A stretch of 61,991 nucleotides of DNA, the filler included, from Nitrospinota bacterium (lineage in GTDB: Bacteria; JAUXIQ01): the NCBI GenBank assembly GCA_030620925.1. It is 15 parts of 15 records of this genome, joined end to end, with 100 filler letters (N's around TTAATTAATTAA, not from the genome) between each part and the next. Parts side by side here need not be neighbours in the genome. Positions count along the whole stretch, not along the records: positions 32,686 to 37,055 come from JAUXIQ010000225.1; 14 more parts are not named here. The stretch is one strand, 5' to 3'. The notes under the pieces are model-generated. The model saw nothing but the letters and a program-made list of their open reading frames with translations, was not told the origin of the DNA and did no database searches. Shown here in pieces: positions 3,575-60,890 of the stretch. Positions within the stretch are counted from its first letter, which is position 1, and each line of letters opens with the position of its first letter. A program made the translations under genes and the position numbers.

Positions 3575-4645
3575 ATGTATGCCTCTATACCAATAACCCG
3601 GGCTGAAACGCTTAAGGAACACCCTCGAGACGATGAGCTCAGTTTCGGGGAAATCTTTACCGACCACATGCTGCTCATGGATTACAACCTCGCAGACGGA
3701 TGGAATAACCCGCGCATAGAACCCTACCAGGCAATAGCATTAGAACCTGCGGCCACAATTTTGCACTATGCCCAGGCGGTCTTCGAGGGGTTGAAGGCAT
3801 TCCGGACGACAGACGGCCGCATTACCCTTTTCCGTCCCCGGGAATATATGCAGCGTTTAACCAGATCTTGCGAAAGGCTCTGCATACCCCTCCTTGAGCC
3901 AGACCTGGCTCTCCACTGCATCATGGAACTGGTGAAGCTGGAAAGCTCCTGGGTTCCCTCAAGCTTCGGCACATCTCTTTACGTGAGGCCCTTCATTATC
4001 GCCACCGACAACCATCTGGGTGTCCGGCCTTCTGAGACCTATCGTTTCATGATTATCCTTTCCCCAGTGGGGGCATACTACGCCGAGGGTTTCAATCCGG
4101 TATCCATAACGGTTTCAGACGAGTTCGTCCGCGCCGTGAAGGGGGGCACTGGAGACGCCAAGACGCCGGGCAACTACGCCGCCAGTCTGCTGGCCTCGGC
4201 GCAGGCCAAGAAGGAGGGATACGCTCAGGTGCTCTGGCTCGACGGCAGGGAAAGAAAATATGTCGATGAAGTGGGGACCATGAACATCTTCTTCGTTATA
4301 GACAGCGCACTGATCACACCTCCGCTGGGCGGAGCGATCCTGGACGGGGTAACGCGCAAATCGGTTATCCAGCTTGCCCAAGAATGGGGTATGCCTGTCA
4401 AGGAGCGCATGGTCTCCATAGATGAAGTCATGGAGGCCGGACAGAGCGGAGCCCTCACCGAGGTTTTCGGCAGCGGGACGGCGGCGGTTGTCTCGCCGGT
4501 GGGTAAACTTCATTATAAAGGTACGGTGTTGGCCATCAACGATGGAAAGGTGGGCGAGTTCTCACAGCGCCTCTTTGAAGAGATAACCAGCATCCAATAC
4601 GGGAAAATACCCGACCGACTGGGCTGGAACCTGGAAGTCTGCTGA
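3575..4645 (+). CDS. ilvE: Branched-chain amino acid aminotransferase
   Basis: Motifs LHYAQAVFEGLKA, LYVRP, AKTPGNY, EVGTMNIF, ILDGVTRKS, EVFGSGTAA. Extended -10 TGCTATAAT upstream at about 3445-3453. Confidence 0.95.
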   Translation: MYASIPITRAETLKEHPRDDELSFGEIFTDHMLLMDYNLADGWNNPRIEPYQAIALEPAATILHYAQAVFEGLKAFRTTDGRITLFRPREYMQRLTRSCERLCIPLLEPDLALHCIMELVKLESSWVPSSFGTSLYVRPFIIATDNHLGVRPSETYRFMIILSPVGAYYAEGFNPVSITVSDEFVRAVKGGTGDAKTPGNYAASLLASAQAKKEGYAQVLWLDGRERKYVDEVGTMNIFFVIDSALITPPLGGAILDGVTRKSVIQLAQEWGMPVKERMVSIDEVMEAGQSGALTEVFGSGTAAVVSPVGKLHYKGTVLAINDGKVGEFSQRLFEEITSIQYGKIPDRLGWNLEVC

Positions 4646-4747
4646 GCTGACACTGGCGCTTTCCGGTTGAATATTACAGCTATTCTTAAACAGGAGCGTT
4701 CAGCGAGGTTATCCTGCTAAATCCTAGAAAGAATTTGAGGACTGACG

Positions 4748-8345: not shown

Positions 8346-8445
8346 NNNNNNNNNNNNNNNNNNNNNNNNNNNNNNNNNNNNNNNNNNNNTTAATTAATTA
8401 ANNNNNNNNNNNNNNNNNNNNNNNNNNNNNNNNNNNNNNNNNNNN
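8346..8445. other. Artificial contig spacer (N44-TTAATTAATTAA-N44), first of 14
   Basis: Identical 100-nt spacers at 8346-8445, 11485-11584, 14319-14418, 17221-17320, 21677-21776, 25008-25107, 28448-28547, 32586-32685, 37056-37155, 40872-40971, 44463-44562, 47284-47383, 54231-54330 and 57846-57945. The core gives stops in all six frames and genes are cut at the spacers. Confidence 0.98.
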
Positions 8446-11484: not shown

Positions 11485-11760
11485 NNNNNNNNNNNNNNNN
11501 NNNNNNNNNNNNNNNNNNNNNNNNNNNNTTAATTAATTAANNNNNNNNNNNNNNNNNNNNNNNNNNNNNNNNNNNNNNNNNNNNCGTTTTTATTATAAGG
11601 GAAATTTTTGGTCGATGCACGGACATCCGCACTATATTATCACTGAAGAAATATCGCGCGAAAGTGATCGAGAATACCAGGCGGCGAAAACCCCTAAATG
11701 AAGGTTAAAAAAGCGTTTCTATCCTGCCTCTTGCACCGATTCTTAATTTAACAGCTCTGT

Positions 11761-14318: not shown

Positions 14319-14418
14319 NNNNNNNNNNNNNNNNNNNNNNNNNNNNNNNNNNNNNNNNNNNNTTAATTAATTAANNNNNNNNNNNNNNNNNNNNNNNNNN
14401 NNNNNNNNNNNNNNNNNN

Positions 14419-14574: not shown

Positions 14575-15507
14575 ATGAGCGAGAGCAACGTAGTTGCCAA
14601 CAGAAACACCAAAGGTCATACCCGATCCATAATAGATTTAATAGGGAACACCCCTTTGGTGAAGATCAACAACATAACTCCCGACAAGCCGGGGGTGGAA
14701 ATCTACGCCAAGCTGGAATGGTTTAATCCGGGGGGCTCGGTCAAGGACAGGGCGGCCCTGCGCATGATAGAGGACTCTGAAAATTCGGGCCTGCTTAACC
14801 CGGATAAGATCATCGTGGACTCTACTTCGGGAAACACCGGCGTGGCCTACGCCTTGGTGGGCGCGGTGAAAGGCTACAACGTGGAGTTGGTGATGCCCTC
14901 CAACGTGACCATGGAGCGCAAGCGGATCATCGCCGCCTACAAGGCCAAGATAGTCTATTCAGACCCCCTCGAGGGTTCCGACGGGGCACGTCTCCAGGCC
15001 CTACAGATGCTTAAAGACAATCCGGAGAAATATTACCTGCCCTGCCAGTACGACAACGTCTCCAACTGGAAAGCCCACTACGACACGACCGGCGTGGAAA
15101 TATATCACCAGATAGAGGGGCGCGTAACCCATTTCGTGGCGGGCATCGGCACCGGCGGCACGCTCATGGGTGTGGGGAAAAGGCTCAAGGACTACGACCC
15201 CTCCGTACAGGTGTTCGCCGTTGAGCCGGACAACCCCATGCACGGCATCGAGGGCCTCAAACACATGGCCAGCTCCATCATGCCCGGCATCTACGATGAA
15301 AGTTTTCCCGACGGCAAAATCGGCGTCCAGACAGAAGAATCCTACGCCATGGCCCACAGATTGGCCAGCATCGAAGGGCTCTTCGCCGGTCATTCCTCCG
15401 GAGCGGTCATGGTGGGGGCACTGGAGATTGCTAAAAGAATAGACCGCGGAGTCATCGTCACCCTGTTCCCCGACGGCGGAGACCGCTACCTGAGCACGGG
15501 TCTTTAA
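14575..15507 (+). CDS. cysM: PLP-dependent cysteine synthase (CysM-type)
   Basis: Motifs IGNTPLV, KLEWFNPGGSVKDR, STSGNTG, GIGTGGT, PDGGDRYLS. Confidence 0.9.
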   Translation: MSESNVVANRNTKGHTRSIIDLIGNTPLVKINNITPDKPGVEIYAKLEWFNPGGSVKDRAALRMIEDSENSGLLNPDKIIVDSTSGNTGVAYALVGAVKGYNVELVMPSNVTMERKRIIAAYKAKIVYSDPLEGSDGARLQALQMLKDNPEKYYLPCQYDNVSNWKAHYDTTGVEIYHQIEGRVTHFVAGIGTGGTLMGVGKRLKDYDPSVQVFAVEPDNPMHGIEGLKHMASSIMPGIYDESFPDGKIGVQTEESYAMAHRLASIEGLFAGHSSGAVMVGALEIAKRIDRGVIVTLFPDGGDRYLSTGL

Positions 15508-15509
15508 CC

Positions 15510-15977
15510 ATGTTCAAAGTGAGCAAGACAAACATGGAGATTCTGTATCAACACGCAGCCCGGGAGTACCCGCATGAATGCTGCGGGGTGATAATCGGCG
15601 GCAAGGGCGGAGGACCGGCGGAGTACCAGGTGCGCGAACTCACCAATATTCAGAACCGGCTCCACCGCGAAGACCCCCAGGCGCACCCCAGAGACGCCCG
15701 CACCGCCTATCAGATTGACCCCGAGGAATTTTACAAAATCATCAAGGAAACCGAAGCTGACCAACTGGAAATCAAAGCCGTATATCATTCGCATCCTGAG
15801 AACCCCGTATATTTTTCACAGGAAGACGAAGAGAAAGCACTCATCTGGGGTGATCCCCCCTGCAACTATTATCTGATAATGTCCATATACGACGGCGTAG
15901 TAAAAGAAGAAGGGGTGTTCCGCTGGGAACCCTCCTCCAGGACTTTCCTGAGAGAAGAAGTAGAGCAGGAGCAATGA
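15510..15977 (+). CDS. JAMM/M67 metallopeptidase (Mec/CysO-cysteine peptidase-like)
   Basis: YPHECCG and JAMM motif YHSHP...FSQED. Confidence 0.9.
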   Translation: MFKVSKTNMEILYQHAAREYPHECCGVIIGGKGGGPAEYQVRELTNIQNRLHREDPQAHPRDARTAYQIDPEEFYKIIKETEADQLEIKAVYHSHPENPVYFSQEDEEKALIWGDPPCNYYLIMSIYDGVVKEEGVFRWEPSSRTFLREEVEQEQ

Positions 15978-17220: not shown

Positions 17221-17320
17221 NNNNNNNNNNNNNNNNNNNNNNNNNNNNNNNNNNNNNNNNNNNNTTAATTAATTAANNNNNNNNNNNNNNNNNNNNNNNN
17301 NNNNNNNNNNNNNNNNNNNN

Positions 17321-21676: not shown

Positions 21677-21776
21677 NNNNNNNNNNNNNNNNNNNNNNNN
21701 NNNNNNNNNNNNNNNNNNNNTTAATTAATTAANNNNNNNNNNNNNNNNNNNNNNNNNNNNNNNNNNNNNNNNNNNN

Positions 21777-25007: not shown

Positions 25008-25107
25008 NNNNNNNNNNNNNNNNNNNNNNNNNNNNNNNNNNNNNNNNNNNNTTAATTAATTAANNNNNNNNNNNNNNNNNNNNNNNNNNNNNNNNNNNNN
25101 NNNNNNN

Positions 25108-28437: not shown

Positions 28438-28547
28438 ATAAAAAAGGNNNNNNNNNNNNNNNNNNNNNNNNNNNNNNNNNNNNNNNNNNNNTTAATTAAT
28501 TAANNNNNNNNNNNNNNNNNNNNNNNNNNNNNNNNNNNNNNNNNNNN

Positions 28548-32585: not shown

Positions 32586-32685
32586 NNNNNNNNNNNNNNN
32601 NNNNNNNNNNNNNNNNNNNNNNNNNNNNNTTAATTAATTAANNNNNNNNNNNNNNNNNNNNNNNNNNNNNNNNNNNNNNNNNNNN

Positions 32686-32915: not shown

Positions 32916-33227
32916 CTGTCATTCTGAGTCCCGCCACACACGGGAGGAGTATTCTACCCCCGGACTTGTCCGGGGGTTCGTTTAGAGCATGACCCTCCCG
33001 CCCACAAGTGAGCGGGTATCCAGTTATCGGAAATTTATAAGCAGAATTATACATGCCCACCCTTTTAAGGGTGGGTATATGATGAACCCCGCCGTGGCGG
33101 GGCCCCGAACCCCGTAACTTGTTGCGGGGCGATGCACCCCCGGACAGTCCCGCGGTACGCGGGACGAAGAATCTCGCCTGCCCTGCAACAACGTCAAGAT
33201 GAACTCTTCAACTGCGCTCAGAATTGC
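32916..33227. repeat. REP-like element split by a 236-nt palindrome-rich insert
   Basis: Halves ctgtcattctgag (32916-32928) and cgaagaatctcgcctgc (33165-33181) match the reverse complement of the intact copy at 51117-51151. The insert holds several hairpins. Confidence 0.8.
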
Positions 33228-33407: not shown

Positions 33408-34661
33408 ATGACGACAAACGATAATGAAAAAATCAGCTATGCGGAAATAGCCAACGCTTTTTTCGATAAAGCGGCCGAGAAGCTGGGCCTTGAGGAAGAA
33501 TGGCGCGTATCCCTCAAGGTACCATTCAGGGAATTAAGCGTGGAAGTGCCAGTACGCATGGATGACGGGAAACTACGCGTATATCAGGGCTACAGGGTTC
33601 AGCATAACGGTGTGCGCGGCCCGAAGAAAGGCGGCATACGCTACCATCCCCATGTGGACCTGGACGATACAAGGGGCATGGCGGCCATCATGACCTGGAA
33701 GACGGCGGTCATGAACATCCCCTTCGGAGGGGCTAAAGGGGGCGTGAACTGCGACCCGGGAAAAATGTCCAAAAGGGAGCTGGAGCGCCTCACCAGGAAG
33801 TTCGTCTCCCGGATAGGCTTGTTACTCGGCCCCTACCGGGATATACCCGCCCCGGACATGAACACCAACCCCCAGGTGATGGCCTGGATAATGGATGAAT
33901 ACAGCTCTAAACATGGTTACACCCCCAGCGTGGTAACCGGTAAACCGCTGGACCTGGGAGGTTGTCCGGGAAGGGTGGAAGCCACGGGGAGGGGCGTAGT
34001 ATTCATTATGGAAGAGATCGCCAAAGAGTTCAATACCCCTCTGGAAGGAGCGAAGGTGGCCATCCAGGGTTTCGGCAACGTAGGGTCACACTGCGCCGCT
34101 TACCTCGAGAAAGCGGGCAGCAAGGTCGTGGCGGTGGGTGATGTTATGGGGGCTGTCTATAATTCCAGGGGGCTCAGCATGAGTAAATTGCTGACCCACT
34201 CCCGTAAAACGGGTTCAGTGGTGGGTTTCCCGCAGGCTGAGAGTATCGCTAACCATGAGCTGCTGGAGCTTAAGTGCGACTACCTGATACCTGCCGCCCT
34301 GGGGGGTGTCATACACGAAAAAAACGCGAAAAAAATAGCGGCCAAGATAGTGGTTGAGGCGGCCAATTGTCCCGTAACGCATCATGCTGATGAGATACTC
34401 GAGGATAGGGGGGTGTCCGTTGTACCGGATATAGTGGTGAACGCGGGTGGTGTCATCGTCTCTTACTTCGAGTGGGTGCAAAACCTTCAGCAGTTCGCCT
34501 GGAGTCTGAGGAAAGTCAACGCAGAGCTTTCCCGACATATCAAGAGGGGTTATAATGAGATATACAAACTTTCCAAGCAGAAGAAGACCACGCTGCGTAT
34601 GGCCGCATACATGGTAGGGATAGACAGGGTAGCCGCCGCGGAGAAGATGCGCGGCGGTTGA
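33408..34661 (+). CDS. gdhA: Glu/Leu/Phe/Val dehydrogenase (glutamate dehydrogenase)
   Basis: Motifs GYRVQH, KGGIRY, GGAKGG, DIPAPD, ATGRGV, IQGFGNVG, NAGGVIVSYFEW. Confidence 0.93.
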   Translation: MTTNDNEKISYAEIANAFFDKAAEKLGLEEEWRVSLKVPFRELSVEVPVRMDDGKLRVYQGYRVQHNGVRGPKKGGIRYHPHVDLDDTRGMAAIMTWKTAVMNIPFGGAKGGVNCDPGKMSKRELERLTRKFVSRIGLLLGPYRDIPAPDMNTNPQVMAWIMDEYSSKHGYTPSVVTGKPLDLGGCPGRVEATGRGVVFIMEEIAKEFNTPLEGAKVAIQGFGNVGSHCAAYLEKAGSKVVAVGDVMGAVYNSRGLSMSKLLTHSRKTGSVVGFPQAESIANHELLELKCDYLIPAALGGVIHEKNAKKIAAKIVVEAANCPVTHHADEILEDRGVSVVPDIVVNAGGVIVSYFEWVQNLQQFAWSLRKVNAELSRHIKRGYNEIYKLSKQKKTTLRMAAYMVGIDRVAAAEKMRGG

Positions 34662-34685: not shown

Positions 34686-35465
34686 ATGTTAATGGGCAAC
34701 TACAGAGATATCGAGGCCGTCCTTTTCGATTTTTTGGGTACGCTGGTCTATTTCGAGCGGCTGACGATGGAGGAAAGCATAGCTTCCGTCCTGGAGAGCC
34801 TGAAAGCGGATGGGTGCGAGCTGGACTATGATATGTTTCACCCCGCCTACAGGGAATCCACCCAGAAGCATTGGGGCTCCCGGCGCGGCGACGAGGAGAC
34901 TTACAATAAGTACTGGCTGGCCGACGCACTCGAAGCGCTGGGCATAGAGGCGGACCCCGAAGGGGCCATGATAACCCGTGCCGTGGAAGCCTACTTCGAG
35001 CCGTTTCACGAAGTGATGAAACCCATGCCGGGAGCGTTGGAGACGCTGGAAGCGCTGAAAGGCCGTTATCGCCTGGGCCTGGTTTCCAATTTCACATACA
35101 GCCCCACCGTTACCCGGGCCCTGGACGAGCTGGAGATGAGCTCCTATTTTGAGACCGTAGTCATTTCGGCCGACCTGGGGCTGCGCAAGCCGAGTCCGGT
35201 GATTTTCGAGAAAGCCATGGCCGACATCGGTTTGAATGAACCCGGGAAGGCACTTTTCGTGGGCGACGACGTGGACGCGGATATAATGGGGGCGCTTAAG
35301 TCCGGCATGGTGCCCATACTCATCTCTTTTACGCTGAAGGATAATTACCGCGAGCGTCTTTCCAGCGCACTCGACGGTCTGGGAGACGGTTTCGCAAAGA
35401 ACGTTGAGGAGATAAGACTGCCCCTGGAGCTTCTGGAGCTTTTGGACGAAAAGAATAGTAGCTGA
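34686..35465 (+). CDS. HAD family hydrolase (subfamily IA)
   Basis: Motifs LFDFLGTL, LGLVSN, RKPSP.IF, FVGDD.DADI.GA. Confidence 0.9.
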   Translation: MLMGNYRDIEAVLFDFLGTLVYFERLTMEESIASVLESLKADGCELDYDMFHPAYRESTQKHWGSRRGDEETYNKYWLADALEALGIEADPEGAMITRAVEAYFEPFHEVMKPMPGALETLEALKGRYRLGLVSNFTYSPTVTRALDELEMSSYFETVVISADLGLRKPSPVIFEKAMADIGLNEPGKALFVGDDVDADIMGALKSGMVPILISFTLKDNYRERLSSALDGLGDGFAKNVEEIRLPLELLELLDEKNSS

Positions 35466-35490
35466 AATTGTTCATACAGGAGGATTACCT

Positions 35491-35700
35491 TTGAGCGAGA
35501 GCCATAAGGGGAAAGGGAAGACCGGCAATCAAGGTGGCCGCCATAAATCCAGCGAAAAACCTGAGGACGCCGGTGAGAGCAATAACAGTCTGGATAATAT
35601 CGAATACGTCATCGACGAATACTGGGACGACAAGTTCGGGTTCCAATTCGGAGTCCTGGATTGGCGCTCCCTGGGTTTAGGGTGTTGAGGCGGAGGATGA
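35491..35700 (+). CDS. Small protein, candidate selenopeptide ending ...LGLG-C-U-GGG (69 aa if UGA 35686-35688 is Sec; 65 aa otherwise)
   Basis: AGGAGG RBS before the TTG start. End reads TGT-TGA-GGC-GGA-GGA-TGA, followed by a perfect 8-bp hairpin with a GUUC loop. Confidence 0.6.
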
Positions 35701-35720
35701 GGTCGGCGGTTCCGCCGACC
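35701..35720 (+). promoter_or_regulatory. Candidate bacterial SECIS element
   Basis: GGTCGGCG-GTTC-CGCCGACC. The loop begins with GU, 20 nt after the UGA. Possible lower stem AGGCGG (35688-35693) with CCGCCT (35742-35747). Confidence 0.55.
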
Positions 35721-35832
35721 AGGCACCTTTTCAAAAACGCCCCGCCTTTCTCTCGCTGCTTGCGAGGCTGAACTCCTTCCGCAAACTCAGTATCATGAAA
35801 TATAGTGTCATACTCTGTCATAAGGTCGAGGA

Positions 35833-37055
35833 ATGAGCGGGAAGACGAAGACGCTGCTTTTTGTATCTCTGGCCGGGCTGCTCTCCATGGCGGTCTCTTT
35901 CAATTACTCATCGGTTATGTCCATCCTGATCAAGGAATGGGGTTTTACCAACCGGATGAGCGGCAGCGTCAACGGCGTTTTCCTTGCCGGCTACATTATT
36001 TCCGTGCTCATCACCGGCTGGCTGGCGGACCGCTTCGGCGGCCGCCGCGTCTTTATATGGAGCGCGGTTGAGACCGGCATATTCGGGATGGCCTTCATCT
36101 TCTTCGCTGAAGGCTACCGTTCGGCCCTGTTCCTGCGTTTCATGATGGGCTTGGGGCAAGGGGGGCTCTACGTGCCGGCCATGCGTCTCCTCTCCGATTG
36201 GTATGCACCCGAAGAAAGGGGGAAGGCGCTGGGCACGCTTACCGGCGTTCTCATCTTTACCTACGCTATTCCCTACCTGATGGCCCCGCTGGCTGTGGCG
36301 ACCACCTGGCGCTGGGCTATGTCCGCCACCACGCTGCCCGCTTTCGGAGGGGCGGCGGTTATGTATTTCATGGTGAAAGAAAAACCGGAAACACCGCCTC
36401 CATCTTCCATCTCCGGCCAGCTTGTTGCCGGAGGTGAGGAGGGACCCGGCTTCGTGCGGGGTGTGCTCCTCAATAGAAAGTGGTGGCTGGTGAACGGCGG
36501 ATATATGGGCCACTCGTGGGAACTGTTCGCCATGTATGGTTGGATAGGTTATTTTCTCACTTCCAGCGGGGAAGCCGCGGGAAAAAGCTCCGCCGAGGCT
36601 CTTTCCTGGGGAGGTGTGGTGGGCGGGCTCAGTATTCTGGTGGGCACCGTTTCCTGCGCAATGGCCGGGACGCTTTCCGATAAATACGATCGCTTCAAAA
36701 TTATTCCCATTTTCCTCACCATGAGTATGGTCTGCTCGTTCATTTACGGGCGGTTGTTGGGAGGTACGTCTTCCCTGCTTATCCTGGTGGGACTGATATA
36801 TGGGTTTACCGTAGTGGCCGATTCCGCCATCTATAAAGCCGCCACGACGGAGATCGTACCCGAAAGATGCATGGGCGCTGCGCTCGGTCTCCAGTCCTTC
36901 CTCGGCTTCGGTGCGGGTGCCCTGAGCCAGCCCGTATTCGGAGCGGTACTGGACGGGGCGGGATGGGGAACGGCCTGGGTCTCTTCTGGATTGGCCGCCC
37001 TGGCCGGTCTGATTTGCATAATGGTCTTGCGCCCGCCGAACAGATCATTCTTTTC
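35833..37055 (+). CDS. MFS transporter (3' end at contig edge)
   Basis: Motif A GWLADRFGGRR, ERGKALG, about 12 TM helices. Confidence 0.9.
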
Positions 37056-37217
37056 NNNNNNNNNNNNNNNNNNNNNNNNNNNNNNNNNNNNNNNNNNNNT
37101 TAATTAATTAANNNNNNNNNNNNNNNNNNNNNNNNNNNNNNNNNNNNNNNNNNNNAGAAGTTTACCGTTTCAAGCGGCAGGCATATAGCTTTGCTATAGA
37201 ATGGGGAGTATCGCTCG

Positions 37218-38385: not shown

Positions 38386-39516
38386 ATGACAGCCGAATCT
38401 GTACTGTCCAGATTTAACGAAGCCACAACGGACCCCCTCTCAAAATTGAGCGAGATGGAGAAAGCCACCGGTAAAAAAGTGGTGGGCGGGTTCCTCTACG
38501 ACCTGCCTGAAGAGATGCTGCACGCGGCCGGCCTCCAGCCATTGATCTTCTGGGGCACCAATAAGCCCCTCTCCAGAGCCGACACCCTGATCCAATCCTT
38601 CTGCTGTTCCCTGGTGCGCAGCACCCTGGAATTGCTTGCCGACGGGACGCTGGATGGGCTGCAGGGCATGCTCATTCCTCACGTGTGCGACTCGGCCCAG
38701 CAGATGTCCTCCATCTGGAAGTACAATTTCCAGGATAAATATACTGACGACTACTACCTCCCCAAGAAGCTGCGGAGTCAGTCGTCCAGGGACTATCTTT
38801 TGGCCGAGCTGAACAGGTTCAAGGGAAGCGTCGAAGGTTTCTGCGGCGGTAAAATCACCGAAAGCTCCATGGAAGAGAGTATTAAGCTCTACAACGAAAA
38901 CCGCGCACTGATGAGAGAGCTGAACGACCTGCGGCTGAACAAACCCGGCGTAATCTCGGATAAAGATTTCTACACCTCGGTAAAGGCTTCCATGATGATG
39001 CCCAAGGAGGAACACAGCGCGCTGATGAAGGAGCTGCTGGGCTCTCTCAAAGACGCCCCCGCCGGCGAAGAGCCGGAGGTGAAGTTAGTGGTCAGCGGCT
39101 TGGTTTGGGAGCCCCCCGAGTTGCTCGACCTCTTCGCCGAGGTGGGAATCAGCATCGTGGGCGATGATCTCTATAACGGCTCTCGCTACTTCCTGAAAGA
39201 CGTGGCGGAAGACGGCGACCCCCTGGAGGCCATGGCCGACAGGCACATCAACAATTTGCCCTGTTGCTGCTACCACTACCCCCAGCAGGAGACAGCCCAG
39301 CATCTCATAAAACTCGTCAAAGACACCGGCGCACATGGCATCGTGATACTGGAGCTGATGTTCTGCGAGCCGCAGGATTTCGAGCTTCCCGACCTGCTGA
39401 AAGCGTTTGAAGAAGCCGACATACCCGAGCTTTCACTGGAAACAGAACAACAGACAACCGCCCTGGGCCAGATGAAAACCAGGCTCGAGGCTTTCGTGGA
39501 AATGATAGGAGATTAA
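38386..39516 (+). CDS. 2-hydroxyacyl-CoA dehydratase / benzoyl-CoA reductase family subunit (HgdB/BcrC-like)
   Basis: Motifs PEEMLHAAG, SFCCSLVRS, HVCDS, VGDD, FCEP, TRLEAFVEMI. Confidence 0.85.
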   Translation: MTAESVLSRFNEATTDPLSKLSEMEKATGKKVVGGFLYDLPEEMLHAAGLQPLIFWGTNKPLSRADTLIQSFCCSLVRSTLELLADGTLDGLQGMLIPHVCDSAQQMSSIWKYNFQDKYTDDYYLPKKLRSQSSRDYLLAELNRFKGSVEGFCGGKITESSMEESIKLYNENRALMRELNDLRLNKPGVISDKDFYTSVKASMMMPKEEHSALMKELLGSLKDAPAGEEPEVKLVVSGLVWEPPELLDLFAEVGISIVGDDLYNGSRYFLKDVAEDGDPLEAMADRHINNLPCCCYHYPQQETAQHLIKLVKDTGAHGIVILELMFCEPQDFELPDLLKAFEEADIPELSLETEQQTTALGQMKTRLEAFVEMIGD

Positions 39517-39519
39517 CCC

Positions 39520-40743
39520 ATGAGCGAGAAGCAGATAGGTTTTAAGACCACCGCATTAATGAGAGAACTCCTGGGCAAATACTATCAGGATATCCAGAAC
39601 TGCGAGAAGGAAGGGCGGCCCATGGCCTACGTCACCGCGGGGTTCCCCGTGGAAATACTCTACGCAATGGACATCCTCCCCTTCTACCCCGAGAACCACG
39701 CCGCCATGCTCGGTGCCCGCCGCATAGCAGTCGAGCTTTCCCAGGTGGCTGAAGCAGAAGGCTATTCGCAGGACGTCTGCTCCTACGCCCGCTCCGACCT
39801 GGGCTTCAACTTCAGCGGCCAGAGCCCCGTGGGCCCGGTTCCCAAGCCGAACTTCGTGCTTTGCTGCAACCAGCAGTGCGACACGGTGACCAAATGGTAC
39901 GAAGTCCTGGCCCGCTACTTCGACGTCCCCATGTTCCTCATAGACACCCCCAACGTACAGGGTCTCGAACCGCTGGATACCGCCCTGGACTATTTCAAAG
40001 TGCAGCTTAAAGAACTGGTGACCTTCCTGGAGGACAAAACGGACAGGAAACTCACCGACGACAAACTTCAGGAAGCCGTCACTTACTCCTCCGATGCCAC
40101 CCAACTCTGGAAAGAGATTCTCTGGCTGGGCAAGAACGTCCCCGCCCCGCTTACCTGTTTCGACGCCTTCATCAACATGGGGCCCATAGTAACCATCCGC
40201 GGCCTCGAGGAATGCGTGGATTACTACCAGAAGCTCAAGGAAGAGGTCGAGGGCCGCGTGGCCGAGGGTATAGGAGCCGTGCCCCATGAAAAGTTCCGCC
40301 TCTACTGGGACAACATAGCCATATGGTTCCGCCTCAAGGCCCTTTCCGAAAAGTTTTATGAAGCGGGCGCAGCCCCTGTGGTGGCCACCTACACCAACGG
40401 CTGGGCATACGACTTCGACCCCGGAAACCCCTGGGACAGCATGGCTACAGCCTACAGCAAGAGCTTCATAAACTGCGGCATGACGTGGAGACTCCAGAAC
40501 CTCACCCAGCTCATAGAAGAGTTCAACATCGACGGGTTAATCATGCACTCCAATAGGAGCTGTAAACCATACTCCTTCGGCCAGTACACCCTGAAAAACA
40601 TCATCATGGATAAGATAAAGCTGCCCAGCCTGCTCATCGAGGGAGACATGACAGACCCCCGCCTCTTCTCCCCCGAACAGGTGGAGGAAAGCATAGACGC
40701 CTTCCTGGAGAACCTGGAAAAGACCGCCACCAGGAACCAATAA
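39520..40743 (+). CDS. 2-hydroxyacyl-CoA dehydratase / benzoyl-CoA reductase family subunit (HgdA/BcrB-like)
   Basis: Motifs PENHAA, DVCSYAR, CDTVTKWYE, HSNRSCK, EGDMTDPR. Confidence 0.87.
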   Translation: MSEKQIGFKTTALMRELLGKYYQDIQNCEKEGRPMAYVTAGFPVEILYAMDILPFYPENHAAMLGARRIAVELSQVAEAEGYSQDVCSYARSDLGFNFSGQSPVGPVPKPNFVLCCNQQCDTVTKWYEVLARYFDVPMFLIDTPNVQGLEPLDTALDYFKVQLKELVTFLEDKTDRKLTDDKLQEAVTYSSDATQLWKEILWLGKNVPAPLTCFDAFINMGPIVTIRGLEECVDYYQKLKEEVEGRVAEGIGAVPHEKFRLYWDNIAIWFRLKALSEKFYEAGAAPVVATYTNGWAYDFDPGNPWDSMATAYSKSFINCGMTWRLQNLTQLIEEFNIDGLIMHSNRSCKPYSFGQYTLKNIIMDKIKLPSLLIEGDMTDPRLFSPEQVEESIDAFLENLEKTATRNQ

Positions 40744-40868: not shown

Positions 40869-40971
40869 GACNNNNNNNNNNNNNNNNNNNNNNNNNNNNN
40901 NNNNNNNNNNNNNNNTTAATTAATTAANNNNNNNNNNNNNNNNNNNNNNNNNNNNNNNNNNNNNNNNNNNN

Positions 40972-43099: not shown

Positions 43100-43228
43100 A
43101 GCACCACACAGGATACAGGATGAATGAATAGGGGCGGCTTCCAGCCGCCCCTATCTACGTTCGGGAGAAACTTTTCTGTAATCCCGGCTGGAGCGAAGTT
43201 TCTTGTATCATTTATTAGGTCGATCGAA

Positions 43229-44462: not shown

Positions 44463-44809
44463 NNNNNNNNNNNNNNNNNNNNNNNNNNNNNNNNNNNNNN
44501 NNNNNNTTAATTAATTAANNNNNNNNNNNNNNNNNNNNNNNNNNNNNNNNNNNNNNNNNNNNCAGAAAAAGGAGGCGCAGCAGAAGAAGACATCGTGAAA
44601 GCGCCTCCGCCGCAAGAGGTATAAATGCACCGCCTTCAGCGCAGCCCCTGCCGTCCGGTGGGTCGTTGCATCCCGCGTAACGCGGGATCGGGGTGCCGTT
44701 TATATTCAACCGGTTTTCCCGCCCAACCCTGCTCTACAGACAATTCATGTCCCGCGGCGCGGGATGTCTCCATGGATAAGTCCCCCAACCAACCGATTCT
44801 CCTTAAAAA

Positions 44810-47283: not shown

Positions 47284-47384
47284 NNNNNNNNNNNNNNNNN
47301 NNNNNNNNNNNNNNNNNNNNNNNNNNNTTAATTAATTAANNNNNNNNNNNNNNNNNNNNNNNNNNNNNNNNNNNNNNNNNNNNA

Positions 47385-50859: not shown

Positions 50860-51335
50860 AATCTCGCCACGTGTGGGTTAAACTCCCACGAAAATCTCCC
50901 TGCTATTTGTCGCGCCTGGAAGGCGCTCCTGCAAAAAGACGGAAACGCCGCCCACAGGGTAGGAGCGGCATCTTGCCGCGGTTAATTCTTTATGTTTATC
51001 CACGCTGAATCTCTCGCCCAATAATAAAGATCAGGTGTTGATGGGCAACCACAGAGGGTTGCCCCTACATGGTCTGCGGAGGCGCTCCTGCACTTTGGAA
51101 CGAGGGGTTTGCAAGTGCAGGCGAGATTCTTCGCTTCGCTCAGAATGACAGGGTGCGGGGTGCCTCCATTGACGATTCAGGGTTTCACAGGTTACTAGAG
51201 TCTCCCTCCCTTAAAGGGAGGGAATAAGGGAGGGTGATTAAGGGCGACCGACCGGTCGCCCTTACATATCTCACGGAAATCAGGATTCAGAATGACACGA
51301 TGGTGCGTAGGGGCGGGTCCCTGTGCCTGCCCAAA
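50860..51335. repeat. Mosaic cluster of REP-like palindromes
   Basis: gtaggagcggcatcttgccgc, gggcaaccacagagggttgcccctac, gagattcttcgcttcgctcagaatgac, ccctcccttaaagggaggg, agggcgaccgaccggtcgccct and gtaggggcgggtccctgtgcctgccc, between converging genes. Confidence 0.85.
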
Positions 51336-54230: not shown

Positions 54231-54330
54231 NNNNNNNNNNNNNNNNNNNNNNNNNNNNNNNNNNNNNNNNNNNNTTAATTAATTAANNNNNNNNNNNNNN
54301 NNNNNNNNNNNNNNNNNNNNNNNNNNNNNN

Positions 54331-56215: not shown

Positions 56216-56597
56216 GTCGAGTCGATGGGGGGAATTTCACCCCCCGCCGATCACAGATCCAGACGTGAACGTCTCCGCTCATCCGGCTCCTATTGTCCAG
56301 CCATACCAATGGCTTTGCTTTACTCATCGGCTCCTCCCATCACTGGTTGACCAATTCATAAAGCCGGACAATTTGGCCTCTTCGCTCCATCCCCATTACA
56401 AGAACTTCATCACTACTACGAGCTACTCCGCCCCCGTGCCTCGCATCGGTACTCTCACTCTTGTGGGGCCTCCACTTGAGTGTTTCCCTTAACATCGAGA
56501 CGACAGGTTCACAAGTTCTACACAGGAGCCTAAGCCAGAGTCACGCCACCTTTATGCCGGACGCCGCCCAGGCAGTAAGCAGGTTCCCCCTGGAGGA
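56216..56597 (-). mobile_element. Group II intron remnant (class D / RmInt1-like layout), 5'-truncated, RT ORF deleted
   Basis: Domain V GAGCCGGATGAGCGGAGACGTTCACGTCTGGATC (56289-56256). Domain VI ends GTGAAATTCCCCCC...ACTCGAC. Upstream domain motifs GATGTTAAGGGAAA and GAGAGTACCGATGC. IEP start MSKAKP lies almost directly against domain V. Confidence 0.85.
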
Positions 56598-57845
56598 TTA
56601 TTTTACCACATCCCGATTATGGAGCGGCGGTTTCAGCAGTTCTTTTAAGAACATGGATCTGCCCACCACCACCGAATCGAAACCGTATCGCAGGCGTATA
56701 TCGTCCACCACCTCGCACAGAACCTTGAGGCGTTCATGCGCGGCGATGGTGTCGGCGTTCCCTTGATCGTTGAAGAGAGACAACTGGAAGGGTGAACGAG
56801 AAAGCGGGTCCGCCGCCTGGAGGGCCACTCCGATGAGGCGCACCCTCACCCTTCGGATGAAGGCCCGCTCCAACAGCTTCCTCGCGGCCAGGAACAGGGA
56901 TTGGCCCAGGTCGGTAAGCCGGGGCAGGGTGAGGGAACGGGAGACGGTGACGAAATCCGAGTAGCGTAGCTTCAGGGTTACTCCCCGTGCAAGCAACCCC
57001 TCCTCCCGCAGGCCGCCGGCGGCGCGCTCGGTCAGGTAGTGGAGATGTGCTTCCAGGAGAGTAAGGTCCGCCGTGTCTTCCTCGAAGGTGGTCTCGCGGC
57101 TGATGGATCTGGGTGGGGTCCGTCGCCGTCGTGAAGAGCCTTCGTTGGGCGAATCAGAAGGCTCGTCGATACCTCTTGCCCGCAGGTGCAGCGAGAGACC
57201 GGTGTTCCCGAAGGCGGCCTCGAGGAGCCGCACGTCCATCCCCGCCAGGTCGCCGATGGTGTTCAGACCCAGTGTCTCAAAGCGAGGCCGGCTCTTCTCC
57301 CCCACGCCGGGCAGTTTCCTTATGGGTAGAGGGGCCAGGAAACGGGCCTCACAGCCGGGCAACACGCGTATCATGCCCTCCGGTTTGGCGCAGCCGGAGG
57401 CTATTTTAGAGACCAGCCGGCCGGTGGAGAGGCCGATGGAGGCGCTTAAACCCAACTCCTGACGCACTTCATGGTGGATGCGGTGGCAGATATCAACCGT
57501 CGGCCCCGAGAGGCGCCGCAATCCCGTGAGGTCCAGGTATGCCTCGTCGATGGAGACCGGCTCCACGACCGGCGTGTGGCGGGCCAGTATCTGATGGAAG
57601 CGCCTGGAGTAGTGGTTGTAGCTTTCCCAGTTCCCTCGCAGGAAGACCGCTTCCGGGCAGAGCCGTTTAGCAGCGGCCAGAGGCATCGCCGAATGGACGC
57701 CGAATGCTCTCGCCTCGTAGGATGCGGCGGCCACCACGCCCCGTCCCTCGGGATCACCCCCCACTATGACCGGCTTCCCGTTTAAAGAAGGGTCCAGCAC
57801 CTGTTCCACGGCCACGAAGAAGGCGTCCAGGTCTATGTGTGCAAT
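56598..57845 (-). CDS. dinB: DNA polymerase IV (Y family); first codons lost at contig end
   Basis: Motifs IAHIDLDAFFVAVE, VVAAASYEAR.FGV.SAM, SIDEAYLD, AKPEG, LPGVG. Confidence 0.95.
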   Translation of the reverse strand: MAHIDLDAFFVAVEQVLDPSLNGKPVIVGGDPEGRGVVAAASYEARAFGVHSAMPLAAAKRLCPEAVFLRGNWESYNHYSRRFHQILARHTPVVEPVSIDEAYLDLTGLRRLSGPTVDICHRIHHEVRQELGLSASIGLSTGRLVSKIASGCAKPEGMIRVLPGCEARFLAPLPIRKLPGVGEKSRPRFETLGLNTIGDLAGMDVRLLEAAFGNTGLSLHLRARGIDEPSDSPNEGSSRRRRTPPRSISRETTFEEDTADLTLLEAHLHYLTERAAGGLREEGLLARGVTLKLRYSDFVTVSRSLTLPRLTDLGQSLFLAARKLLERAFIRRVRVRLIGVALQAADPLSRSPFQLSLFNDQGNADTIAAHERLKVLCEVVDDIRLRYGFDSVVVGRSMFLKELLKPPLHNRDVVK

Positions 57846-57945
57846 NNNNNNNNNNNNNNNNNNNNNNNNNNNNNNNNNNNNNNNNNNNNTTAATTAATTA
57901 ANNNNNNNNNNNNNNNNNNNNNNNNNNNNNNNNNNNNNNNNNNNN

Positions 57946-59759: not shown

Positions 59760-60890
59760 ATGATCAATAGATCGAAGGGGATAAAGTTTTTCCTGACGGC
59801 TGCGATTCTGGCAGCGGTGTCCGCTATATATATTTTCGGCGGATTACGCCTTGTCTATAGCGATCAGTGGAAGACTGATTGGAGCAAATATTCCATAGAC
59901 CGGAATGAGTTCATGCGGGGCGGCCCCCCCAAGGACGGTATACCCTCCATCGACCGCCCCCAGTTTATAAAGCCGGACGAAGCCGGATCGTGGTTGGCGG
60001 ACCGGGAACCGGTAATCAGCCTCACCATTAACGGGGATGCCAGGGCCTACCCGCTGCAGATACTCATCTGGCACGAGCTGGTTAACGATGAGGTAGGCGG
60101 TTCGCCGGTCCTGGTGAGTTTCTGACCGCTGTGCAATACCGCCGTAGTTTATAAACGGCGGCTGGAAGGCAAGACGTATGAGTTCGGCGTATCAGGCATG
60201 CTCTACAAGAGCAACCTGGTGTTGTATGACCGCCAGACCGAATCTCTCTGGATGCAGATAACCGGGGAGGCGGTAGCCGGCGGTCTGACCGGAGCCAAGC
60301 TTTCGTTGGTTCCCGCGGCCATAGTCTCGTTTAAGGAATGGCGCGACGCGTTTCCGGAGGGCAAGGTGCTTTCGAGGAAAACCGGCCACCAGCGATCCTA
60401 CGGCCGCAACCCTTACGTTGGTTATGACGAGGTGGGGCAGGCGCCTTTCCTCTATAGCGACCCGCTTGATTCCCGGCTTCGCCCCATGGAGCGAGTAGTG
60501 GCCGTGGAACAGGGTGGTATGAGCAAGGCTTATCCCCTGCCGCTGCTGAGGAAAGAGCGAGTAATTGAAGACACTGTAGGCGGCAGGCGGCTGGTTATTT
60601 TTTACTCAGCGGGAACCACTTCGGCCCTGGACGCCGATCAGATACGGGATTCCAGAGATGTGGGGGCTACGGGCGTCTACACACCCGCAGTCGATGGCCG
60701 GAAGCTGACCTTCGAAGCAGATGCCAGGGGTTTTAAAGACCTCGAGACCGGCAGTATCTGGAACATCCTGGGGCAAGCCGTTTCCGGCCCCCTGGCCGGA
60801 AAGCGCCTGACGCCGGTCGTTCACAGCAACCTTTTCTGGTTCGCTCAAGCGGCGTTCAGCCCTGAGACCGTGGTATACGGAAACCAGTGA
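59760..60890 (+). CDS. DUF3179 family selenoprotein (376 aa, Sec at TGA 60123-60125, U-P-L-C)
   Basis: ORFs 59760-60125 and 60198-60890 share a frame. Read-through gives GGPPKDGIPSID...HELVND...VSF-U-PLCNTA...FGVSGMLYKSNLVLYDRQTESLW. N-terminal signal/anchor. Confidence 0.88.
60139..60161 (+). promoter_or_regulatory. Bacterial SECIS-like hairpin
   Basis: CCGCCGT-AGTTTATAA-ACGGCGG. The loop starts 20 nt after the UGA and has GU at loop positions 2-3. Confidence 0.7.

What the first reader, a model, noticed from the sequence alone, without database searches (positions are those of the whole stretch)
35491..35747. Candidate new small selenoprotein ending Gly-Cys-Sec-Gly-Gly-Gly, in a HAD hydrolase / MFS transporter gene run
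Seen: a strong AGGAGG RBS, then a 65-codon ORF with a polar, disordered N-terminus and an aromatic/acidic core (YVIDEYWDDKFGFQFGVLDWRSLGLGC). It continues TGA-GGC-GGA-GGA-TGA and then a perfect 8-bp hairpin with a GUUC loop. That loop starts 20 nt after the first UGA, the same spacing as the hairpin of the DUF3179 Sec codon in this window. The hairpin lacks an immediate U-tract, so it is a poor terminator. Established: bacterial SECIS elements lie just 3' of the UGA with a G early in the apical loop, and G-C-U-G is the C-terminal redox centre of animal thioredoxin reductases. Inference: a 69-aa peptide with a vicinal Cys-Sec pair and a Gly-rich tail, acting as a redox or metal(loid) carrier, a Se/S carrier or a RiPP-like precursor. 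It is co-oriented with a HAD hydrolase 25 nt upstream and an MFS transporter downstream. I do not recognise the family, and gene callers would stop it at Cys.
Basis: partly seen in the sequence, partly recalled or inferred. Interest (0 to 1): 0.85.

Follow-up and report, generated by a model that had tools for sequence, protein, structure and literature searches.

The report
Possible new small selenoprotein, unproven
A real, conserved 65-codon gene of no known family ends in Cys-UGA followed by a hairpin that fits the bacterial selenocysteine-insertion signal, so it may encode a tiny selenoprotein that gene callers cut short, but the deciding comparison with relatives' DNA could not be made.

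Summary
AGGAGG lies at 35478-83 and the TTG start at 35491. After 65 codons ending GLGC come TGA (35686-88), GGC GGA GGA, TGA (35698-700) and a perfect 8-bp hairpin with a GUUC loop (35701-20).

The gene is real. Nine relatives, all from metagenomes, share an almost invariant 28-residue C-terminal core, and every one stops at the same position. Eight end in Cys and one in Gly.

The hairpin meets all four published bacterial SECIS constraints. Its UGA-to-loop spacing is 20 nt, the same as at the DUF3179 Sec codon in this window. None of the 15 other TGA-ended genes has such a hairpin.

The standard proofs are missing. No Cys-for-Sec relative (…GCCGGG) exists in 1.84 or 5.8 billion proteins. No DNA of any relative could be reached, so TGA conservation, tail conservation and hairpin covariation are untested. 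The second TGA is unremarkable: 11 of 37 genes have one.

The window is a chain of short contigs, so the secure context is only GDH-HAD-peptide-MFS.

Odds: selenoprotein about 0.42. Ends at Cys, with the hairpin as a transcript-end element or the peptide as a leader peptide, about 0.5.

The parts
35478..35483 (+). Shine-Dalgarno AGGAGG, 7 nt before the TTG start
   Evidence: read from the sequence
35491..35685 (+). 65-codon coding region. It has a variable polar N-terminal half and a near-invariant 28-residue C-terminal core ending GLGC.
   Evidence: ORF list. Nine relatives were found and aligned in A2 with 16 invariant columns. No Pfam or NCBIfam family matches.
35686..35688 (+). TGA1: either the stop codon or the candidate selenocysteine codon
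   Evidence: All 9 relatives end at the aligned position.
35689..35697 (+). GGC GGA GGA: a Gly-Gly-Gly tail if TGA1 is decoded, otherwise a 12-nt spacer together with TGA2
35698..35700 (+). TGA2, in frame. It lies 8 nt before the loop, too close for the SECIS consensus spacing of 16-37 nt, so it would act as the true stop.
   Evidence: consensus spacing from the PMC13188914 passage. Tandem stops are common: 11 of 37 genes.
35701..35720 (+). Perfect 8-bp hairpin, loop GUUC at 35709-35712, -15.3 kcal/mol. Candidate SECIS, or a transcript-end or attenuator hairpin.
   Evidence: It is unique in the window, is not called terminator-like and has no Rfam match. The Rfam positive control also has no match.
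35721..35832 (+). 112-nt spacer to the MFS gene, mildly C-rich (C 32, G 22; GC skew about -0.3), with no significant overall fold
   Evidence: No + strand promoter-like site is called here.
34686..35465 (+). HAD-IA family hydrolase, 25 nt upstream, same strand
   Evidence: Pfam PF00702 and PF13419. The NCBIfam HAD-IA subfamily cut-offs are reached; no equivalog cut-off is reached.
35833..37055 (+). MFS transporter (MFS_1). The gene runs into the contig end. Its best partial matches are to organic-anion-type MFS subfamilies, all below cut-off.
33408..34661 (+). Glutamate dehydrogenase, the first complete gene of the contig, same strand
60123..60161 (+). Comparison site on another contig: the in-frame TGA of the DUF3179 gene (F-U-P-L-C) and its hairpin. 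The stem is 60139-45 / 60155-61, the loop is AGUUUAUAA, the spacing is 20 nt and the energy -11.1 kcal/mol.
   Evidence: The Pfam DUF3179 match runs 58-370 across the TGA with E 2.5e-106. Sequence, geometry. The family is listed as a UxxC/T selenoprotein in Table 1 of PMC13188914.

Best explanation
The single most likely mechanism, though not above even odds, is that TGA1 (35686-88) is decoded as selenocysteine.

Proposed mechanism: SelB carrying Sec-tRNA binds the 8-bp GUUC hairpin. The hairpin starts 12 nt after the codon and presents its loop 20 nt downstream. The ribosome inserts Sec, adds three glycines and stops at TGA2, which lies too close to the loop to be recoded. The product would be a 69-residue, largely unstructured peptide ending G-C-U-G-G-G, with a vicinal Cys-Sec pair on a flexible Gly-rich arm. 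Such an arm could cycle between selenenylsulfide and selenolate/thiolate, or bind a soft metal or metalloid. It might work with the MFS transporter encoded downstream.

Shown:
- the gene is real and conserved;
- all relatives are called to end at this position;
- the hairpin meets the SECIS consensus and matches the geometry of a known Sec site in the same window.

Inferred:
- decoding of TGA1;
- every statement about chemistry and function.
For: 1. Real gene. There are 9 relatives: 5 and 4 more among the 6 hits; the other 2 are repeat proteins judged spurious. They have 16 invariant columns in the last 28 residues, a conserved start (MS, or LS in one; the outlier P0009 starts MG and P0010 and P0011 are 5'-incomplete) and variable N-terminal halves.

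2. All 9 stop at the aligned position, so conservation runs up to the last called residue. One member (P0009) has Gly instead of the terminal Cys and a new Cys 14 residues upstream (FGF to FGC). It still stops at the same place. This is easier to explain if the essential residue lies beyond the called end.

3. The hairpin meets all four constraints quoted in PMC13188914, Fig. 2 legend (passage seen): loop 3-9 nt (here 4), stem 4-16 bp (8), G in the first two loop positions followed by G or U (GU), spacing 16-37 nt (20), and MFE of -7.5 kcal/mol or lower (-15.3).

4. Controls. 86 of 1893 TGA triplets pass the consensus and 7 of 1893 do so at -15 or better. 3 of 37 gene ends pass; the other two follow TAA and TAG at the extreme spacing of 37. 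0 of the 15 other TGA-ended genes pass.

5. The DUF3179 gene, on another contig of the window, has an in-frame TGA with the Pfam match running across it. DUF3179 is a published selenoprotein family (Table 1). Its hairpin has the same 20-nt spacing and also has GUU in the loop. The source therefore probably decodes Sec.

6. Precedents, from passages of preprint 10.1101/2022.07.06.499078: small proteins ending Cys-Sec (SaoC; DUF466 Lys-Cys-Sec), with the SECIS lying after the stop and a transporter gene adjacent. By my count from the quoted SaoC sequence, that UGA-to-loop spacing is 17 nt. The same passage says PGAP cannot predict C-terminal Sec.
Against: 1. No relative carries Cys in place of the putative Sec. 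None extends as ...GCCGGG among the 9 relatives, in the 5.8-billion-protein search, in the full HMM scan of 1.84 billion representatives or among longer proteins. [quoted passage not shown]

2. Only three residues would follow the Sec, so similarity past the UGA cannot be shown from this sequence.

3. The stop codon, tail and hairpin of the relatives are unknown, because no DNA was reachable.

4. Strong hairpins follow other genes here too, one of them without a U-tract (43128-43154 after a TAG). TGA is an ordinary stop here (16 of 43 stops). A second in-frame stop within 4 codons is common (11 of 37).

5. No selA, selB or selD, and no tRNA-Sec, lie in the window. The DUF3179 gene lies on another contig of what is evidently a binned assembly.

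6. AlphaFold2 gives no confident fold (mean pLDDT 52), unlike most selenoproteins.
Confidence: 0.42

Rival explanations
1. The protein really ends at Cys65. TGA1 is the stop and TGA2 a chance or back-up stop. The hairpin is a transcript 3'-end, stabilising or leaky-attenuator element. It would let the small gene be expressed more highly than the MFS gene downstream, as is usual after small peptide genes. The conserved C-terminal core with its terminal thiol would then be the working part of a small protein or exported or modified peptide.
For: - No Cys-for-Sec relative exists.
- All relatives end at the same place, as a true conserved C-terminus would.
- TGA is a common stop: 16 of 43. Tandem in-frame stops occur in 11 of 37 genes.
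- Strong post-stop hairpins occur elsewhere: -30.9 and -23.3 kcal/mol after TAA and TAG genes. One of them lacks a U-tract.
- A 132-nt gap lies before the MFS gene.
Against: - The site is not terminator-like by the scan: there is no U-tract within 7 nt.
- The exact SECIS geometry would be a coincidence. About 2 of 36 other gene ends pass the consensus, and 0 of 15 TGA-ended ones.
- One relative lacks the terminal Cys yet ends at the same position.
- No modifying enzyme or dedicated exporter other than the MFS lies on the contig.
- No + strand promoter-like site for the MFS gene is called in the spacer.
Confidence: 0.38
2. The ORF is a regulatory leader (ribosome-arrest) peptide. The conserved last 28 residues would lie in the exit tunnel when the ribosome reaches TGA1. 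Stalling at the stop codon, perhaps dependent on a metabolite, would control transcription or translation of the MFS transporter downstream through the hairpin and the C-rich spacer. This would work as TnaC and SpeFL do in enterobacteria (recalled, no call).
For: - Conservation is confined to the roughly 28 residues before the stop and runs to the last residue, while the N-terminal half varies in sequence and length.
- The next gene is a transporter, after a 132-144-nt spacer.
- The hairpin begins 12 nt after TGA1, at about the leading edge of a ribosome holding TGA1 in its A site (inference).
- The spacer has C above G: skew about -0.3, C 32 against G 22.
Against: - The ORF is not at the head of a transcription unit. 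It sits 25 nt behind the HAD gene with no promoter-like site.
- The spacer shows no significant fold and no clear sequestering of the MFS ribosome-binding site (z -0.58).
- 65 codons with a strong AGGAGG site is long for a metabolite-sensing leader.
- The last residue is Cys or Gly, not the Pro typical of termination stalls (recalled).
Confidence: 0.12
3. Not a functional gene: a chance ORF or an assembly artefact.
For: - The window's own peptide is not in the protein collection.
- The family is absent from 185,579 species-representative genomes.
- There is no predicted fold.
Against: - Nine independent relatives come from four sources, with conservative substitutions, conserved start and end, and E-values down to 7.7e-33.
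- There is a strong ribosome-binding site at the right distance.
Confidence: 0.02

Closest known systems
KCU-star / DUF466 small proteins (E. coli YbdD and YjiX end Arg-Cys-Cys; Campylobacter forms end Lys-Cys-Sec). Taken from passages of 10.1101/2022.07.06.499078 and Table 1 of PMC13188914.
   Same: Small proteins with a vicinal Cys-Cys or Cys-Sec at the extreme C-terminus, so the SECIS necessarily lies after the coding region. The gene lies next to a transporter gene.
   Different: There is no sequence relationship: no Pfam or NCBIfam hit, even at E up to 10. Here three Gly would follow the Sec. No Cys-Cys forms are known. The transporter is an MFS, not CstA-like.
SaoC, the Cys-Cys-COOH (seleno)protein of the SAO system (NF040734)
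   Same: A protein of no wider family ending CC or CU. The Sec call there rests on TGA aligned to Cys plus a perfect 7-bp hairpin with a G-containing loop after a double stop (passage).
   Different: SaoC proteins are about 158 residues long, with signal or lipoprotein peptides, and lie in a nine-gene locus. 49 of 52 end in Cys-Cys, which gave the Cys/Sec alignment that is missing here. There is no NCBIfam match.
C-terminal Gly-Cys-Sec-Gly redox centre of animal thioredoxin reductase
   Same: The same tetrapeptide, G-C-U-G, on a flexible C-terminal tail.
   Different: In thioredoxin reductase the tail belongs to a roughly 55-kDa flavoenzyme that reduces it. Here it would sit on a 69-residue peptide with no redox domain, and no reductase gene lies on the contig.
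UXX-star, GUXX-star and UXPK-star selenoprotein families, and selenobacteriocin (TIGR04081, SGUG). Names and motifs from Table 1 of PMC13188914.
   Same: Sec lies within a few residues of the true stop, with Gly flanking it. Gene callers truncate these proteins.
   Different: No HMM of these families matches. Their domain contexts differ.
Small-gene 3' hairpins (leaky terminators or stabilisers) and stop-codon arrest peptides such as TnaC and SpeFL (recalled)
   Same: A small ORF is followed closely by a hairpin and then by a transporter or downstream operon gene. Conservation is concentrated in the residues just before the stop.
   Different: There is no U-tract, no demonstrated alternative structures, and the ORF is internal to a gene run.

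Membership tests
Bacterial selenoprotein gene (Sec-decoded UGA) | A stem-loop after the UGA that fits the bSECIS consensus: loop 3-9 nt, stem 4-16 bp, G in the first two loop positions, spacing 16-37 nt, MFE of -7.5 kcal/mol or lower | tested here: met
   Loop GUUC, 8 bp, spacing 20 nt, -15.3 kcal/mol. Constraints taken from the Fig. 2 legend passage of PMC13188914. The background pass rate is 86 of 1893 TGA triplets and 3 of 37 gene ends.
Bacterial selenoprotein gene (Sec-decoded UGA) | Homologues with Cys aligned to the UGA | tested here: not met
   None of the 9 relatives extends past the position. No ...GCCGGG form appears.
Bacterial selenoprotein gene (Sec-decoded UGA) | TGA at the site in 100% of members, and at least 10 examples (criteria of Haft and Gwadz, passage) | not testable with these tools
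   There are 10 members counting the window, but only protein sequences of the relatives.
Bacterial selenoprotein gene (Sec-decoded UGA) | Protein similarity continuing past the UGA | not testable with these tools
   Only Gly-Gly-Gly follows in the window, and no DNA of relatives is available.
Bacterial selenoprotein gene (Sec-decoded UGA) | The organism carries selA, selB, selC and selD | tested here: inconclusive
   None lies in the window (no tRNA; Pfam). A DUF3179 gene with an in-frame TGA, homology across it and a consensus hairpin lies on another contig.
KCU-star / DUF466, SaoC, UXX-star, selenobacteriocin | Match to the family HMM (PF04328/NF033934, NF040734, NF041114/NF041211, TIGR04081; accessions partly from Table 1, PF04328 recalled) | tested here: not met
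   0 families for the 65- and 71-residue forms in NCBIfam at E up to 0.1. 0 in Pfam at 0.001. 0 of 6 members match at E up to 10.
Intrinsic (Rho-independent) terminator | A G+C-rich hairpin directly followed by a U-tract | tested here: not met
   The site is not among the 7 terminator-like sites. TTTT starts 7 nt after the stem.
Stop-codon ribosome-arrest leader peptide | Conservation limited to the tunnel-length segment before the stall codon, and a downstream structure that couples stalling to expression of the next gene | tested here: inconclusive
   The first part is met. The second is not shown: the spacer fold has z -0.58, with only a modest excess of C over G.

The most novel reading that the evidence does not exclude
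This would be a Sec-only family of tiny bacterial selenopeptides with no Cys-containing relatives at all. A thioredoxin-reductase-like G-C-U-G arm would sit on an otherwise disordered 69-residue peptide, with the SECIS placed entirely beyond the true stop codon. The peptide would act as a mobile selenenylsulfide or metal(loid)-binding partner of the adjacent MFS transporter. This parallels the unexplained pairing of DUF466 CC/CU-COOH proteins with pyruvate transporters.
Probability: 0.15. Interest if true: 0.7.

Novelty: new member of a known kind. Interest (0 to 1): 0.45.

Why it matters
C-terminal selenocysteines are a blind spot. Gene callers stop at the UGA. The truncated product looks complete, and no homology past the site can flag the error. 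A passage of the Haft and Gwadz preprint states that NCBI's pipeline cannot predict them.

If this family is confirmed, three things follow:
- It would add a family to the 119 listed in Table 1 of PMC13188914. None of those families' models held in NCBIfam or Pfam matched it.
- It would be an unusual case with no Cys-containing counterpart.
- It would be another small Cys-Sec-ended protein beside a transporter, which might help explain what such proteins do.

If refuted, it remains a rare, conserved orphan small protein. It also becomes a useful example of how well a plain post-stop hairpin can imitate a SECIS.

Tried and rejected
- **Genome scan**: 144 pattern matches and 3 loci. All three are short word matches (DEYWDEK or DEYWDDK) inside longer unrelated reading frames. 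No true relative was found in 185,579 species-representative genomes.
- **tblastn against plasmids and phages:** no match.
- **Longer proteins:** none among 2318 candidates.
- **Antisense-frame search**. I searched with the antisense ORF 35612-35821. A called antisense ORF from a related locus would have revealed the DNA after the stop. There was 1 candidate and none scored.
- **Rfam:** no match at E up to 10 around the hairpin. The DUF3179 Sec site also gives none, so this is uninformative.
- **ESM Atlas:** no usable hit for the whole peptide or for residues 36-65.
- **AlphaFold2** on the 10-row alignment: mean pLDDT 51.9, pTM 0.17, only a 6-residue helix. No fold search was made on it, because a low-confidence model gives meaningless matches.
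- **Complex prediction** of the MFS protein with residues 34-65 of the peptide: no verdict, score 0.00. This is not evidence either way.
- **Paralogues in the window:** none.
- **Literature search** for three motifs of the peptide: 0 papers.
- **PDB search** for the DUF3179 protein: 0 hits.
- **Read-through of both TGAs**, giving 34 further codons to a TAG: considered and dropped. TGA2 lies 8 nt from the loop and nothing supports the extension.
- **Downstream ATG at 35698**, a 24-codon ORF: rejected, because GGAGG abuts the ATG with no spacer.
- **Supplements of the papers** were not opened. A candidate list there, for example from deep-Sep or BSepDB, might include this family.

Full report
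**What is there.** On the + strand an AGGAGG (35478-83) lies 7 nt before a TTG at 35491. The TTG opens a 65-codon frame. The frame ends ...SLGLGC (Cys codon 35683-85) and continues TGA (35686-88), GGC GGA GGA, TGA (35698-700). Directly after comes a perfect 8-bp G+C-rich hairpin at 35701-35720 with loop GUUC. Its implied coordinates are about 3 nt high. The hairpin alone is worth -15.3 kcal/mol and survives in both the MFE and the centroid folds. The wider 81-nt and 186-nt regions fold no better than shuffles (z -1.23 and -0.58). TTTT begins 7 nt after the stem, and the terminator scan does not list the site.

**Context.** The window is not one piece of genome. It holds 14 spacers of the form N44-TTAATTAATTAA-N44, so it is a chain of short contigs, evidently a binned assembly. 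The finding's contig is 32686-37055. It carries the 3' end of another gene (by eye a nucleoside-diphosphate kinase tail, not scanned), then glutamate dehydrogenase (33408-34661) and a HAD-IA hydrolase (34686-35465). The small ORF follows, and then an MFS transporter that runs into the contig end (35833-37055). All are on the + strand. The DHH, 2-hydroxyacyl-CoA-dehydratase-like and other genes further on belong to other contigs and say nothing about this gene.

**The gene is real.** The 5.8-billion-protein search gave 5 relatives, with E from 7.7e-33 to 3.1e-12. The exhaustive HMM scan of 1.84 billion representatives gave 6 hits. Four are true relatives and two are repeat proteins that share only a short word, which I dropped. 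In the 10-row alignment the N-terminal halves vary in sequence and length. The last 28 residues hold 16 invariant and 5 nearly invariant columns with conservative changes. The peptide matches no Pfam or NCBIfam family, and 0 of 6 members match at E up to 10. It has no longer or fused form and no copy in plasmids or phages. It has no true copy in 185,579 species-representative genomes and no paralogue in the window. AlphaFold2 gives no confident fold (pLDDT 52).

**Evidence for selenocysteine.**
- Every one of the 9 relatives is called to end at exactly the aligned position, so conservation runs to the last called residue.
- One divergent member (P0009) has Gly in place of the terminal Cys and a new Cys 14 residues upstream. 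It still stops at the same place.
- The hairpin meets all four constraints of the bacterial SECIS consensus quoted in the Fig. 2 legend of PMC13188914 (passage seen). These are loop 3-9 nt, stem 4-16 bp, G (then G or U) at the start of the loop, spacing 16-37 nt and MFE of -7.5 kcal/mol or lower. Here the values are 4 nt, 8 bp, GU, 20 nt and -15.3.
- TGA2 lies 8 nt from the loop, outside the spacing range, so it would serve as the real stop.
- The DUF3179 gene on the last contig has an in-frame TGA (60123-25, reading F-U-P-L-C), and the Pfam match runs across it (residues 58-370, E 2.5e-106). DUF3179 UxxC/T is a listed selenoprotein family (Table 1). Its hairpin has a 7-bp stem, loop AGUUUAUAA and -11.1 kcal/mol, with the same 20-nt spacing. 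The source therefore probably decodes Sec, and the candidate copies the geometry of a credible Sec site.
- There are precedents for small proteins ending Cys-Sec, with the SECIS after the stop and a transporter next door (SaoC; DUF466 Lys-Cys-Sec). They are described in passages of the preprint 10.1101/2022.07.06.499078.

**Controls.**
- Of 1893 TGA triplets on both strands, 86 pass the consensus, 15 at -12 kcal/mol or better and 7 at -15 or better.
- Of 37 gene ends that could be scored, 3 pass. They are the candidate and two strong hairpins after TAA- and TAG-ended genes, both at the extreme spacing of 37 (7 of 44 genes were dropped for N or short flanks).
- None of the 15 other TGA-ended genes passes.
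- TGA is an ordinary stop here (16 TGA, 16 TAA, 11 TAG).
- 11 of 37 genes have a second in-frame stop within four codons, so TGA2 carries no weight.
- 2 of 37 genes end in Cys. The other is the class IV aminotransferase, which has no hairpin.

**Evidence against, and what could not be tested.**
- The field's main criterion is a Cys residue aligned to the UGA in homologues, and nearly all selenoproteins are said to have such homologues (passages). Here there is none. No relative reads on as ...GCCGGG.
- With only three residues after the site, similarity past the UGA cannot be shown.
- The tests that would settle the matter all need the relatives' DNA: 100% TGA, conserved Gly codons plus stop, and hairpin covariation (the criteria).
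- Rfam gives no match, but it gives none for the DUF3179 control either.
- No sel gene or tRNA-Sec is in the window.
- A strong hairpin without a U-tract also follows a TAG-ended gene (43128-54). 'Poor terminator' therefore does not imply SECIS.

**Rival readings.**
- (a) The protein ends at Cys and the hairpin is a transcript-end, stabilising or leaky-attenuator element between a small gene and the MFS gene.
- (b) The ORF is a stop-codon arrest leader peptide. Conservation is confined to the roughly 28 residues that would fill the exit tunnel. The hairpin starts at about the leading edge of a ribosome holding TGA1 (inference). A mildly C-rich 112-nt spacer precedes a transporter gene. Against this, the ORF sits 25 nt behind the HAD gene with no promoter-like site, and no regulatory fold stands out.
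- (c) Artefact. This is excluded in practice by nine conserved relatives.

**Weighing.**
- For Sec: the chance that an ordinary gene combines a TGA stop, a consensus hairpin and a conserved terminal Cys is low. Rough rates from this window are 0.37, about 0.05 and about 0.05 or less.
- For Sec: Gly next to Sec and tails of 0-3 residues after it are well precedented.
- Against Sec: C-terminal Cys-Sec proteins are themselves rare, and the missing Cys homologue counts against.
- My odds are 0.42 for Sec, 0.38 for a plain Cys end, 0.12 for the leader-peptide form of the Cys end, 0.02 for an artefact and 0.06 unassigned. Sec is the single most likely mechanism, but the non-Sec readings together are slightly more likely.

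**Comparison and novelty.** If real, this works like the known C-terminal Cys-Sec proteins (KCU-star/DUF466, SaoC) and carries the G-C-U-G tetrapeptide of animal thioredoxin reductase (recalled). It is a member of none of them, because every HMM test failed. It would be a new family of a known kind. It would be unusual in having no Cys-containing form and in being largely unstructured. I did not open the papers' supplements. Lists there, for example from deep-Sep or BSepDB, might include the family. A full-text search for three of its motifs found no paper.

Noticed in passing
window 8346-8445, 11485-11584, 14319-14418, 17221-17320, 21677-21776, 25008-25107, 28448-28547, 32586-32685, 37056-37155, 40872-40971, 44463-44562, 47284-47383, 54231-54330, 57846-57945: There are fourteen spacers of the form N44-TTAATTAATTAA-N44 (a six-frame stop word). 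The window is therefore a chain of 15 short contigs, and gene order across a spacer means nothing.
   Followed up: yes
window 59760-60890 (+), TGA at 60123-60125: A DUF3179 gene has an in-frame TGA reading F-U-P-L-C. The Pfam match runs across the TGA, and a consensus SECIS-like hairpin lies at 60139-60161. This is a member of a published selenoprotein family that gene callers would split in two.
   Followed up: partly
window 3575-4645 (+): The class IV aminotransferase gene also ends Cys-TGA, and the frame stays open for 25 more codons (3575-4720 with TGA read through). No SECIS-like hairpin follows (best +1.4 kcal/mol), so it is probably an ordinary stop.
   Followed up: partly
window 56216-56291 (-): The only Rfam gathering-score match in the window is a group II intron (44.2 bits, gathering score 40, model positions 1-77 of 77). 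It lies just downstream of a Y-family DNA polymerase gene at 56598-57815 (-).
   Followed up: no
window 14575-15977 (+): A PLP-dependent (PALP, cysteine-synthase-like) gene is followed 2 nt later by a prokaryotic JAB/JAMM gene. This pairing is known from sulfur-carrier-protein-dependent cysteine synthesis (recalled). No carrier gene was looked for.
   Followed up: no
window 32956-33165 and 34633-34657: The finding's contig is rich in perfect hairpins. Three (8-9 bp) lie within 210 nt of the 540-nt gap upstream of the glutamate dehydrogenase gene. One 8-bp hairpin lies inside the last codons of that gene, ending 1 nt before its TGA. That makes 5 of the window's 22 in 4.4 kb.
   Followed up: no
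window 51043-51264: Three perfect hairpins (8, 9 and 11 bp; the last has loop GACC on the + strand and GGUC on the - strand, -20 kcal/mol) lie in the gap after the ABC transporter gene. Three - strand TGA triplets upstream of the last one pass the SECIS consensus by position alone. This shows how such hairpins create false positives.
   Followed up: no
window 38386-40743 (+): Two adjacent HGD-D family genes resemble the two subunits of (R)-2-hydroxyisocaproyl-CoA dehydratase and benzoyl-CoA reductase, though below the equivalog cut-offs. Together with the methylmalonyl-CoA mutase and the LPS-heptose genes elsewhere in the window, this suggests a Gram-negative anaerobe.
   Followed up: no
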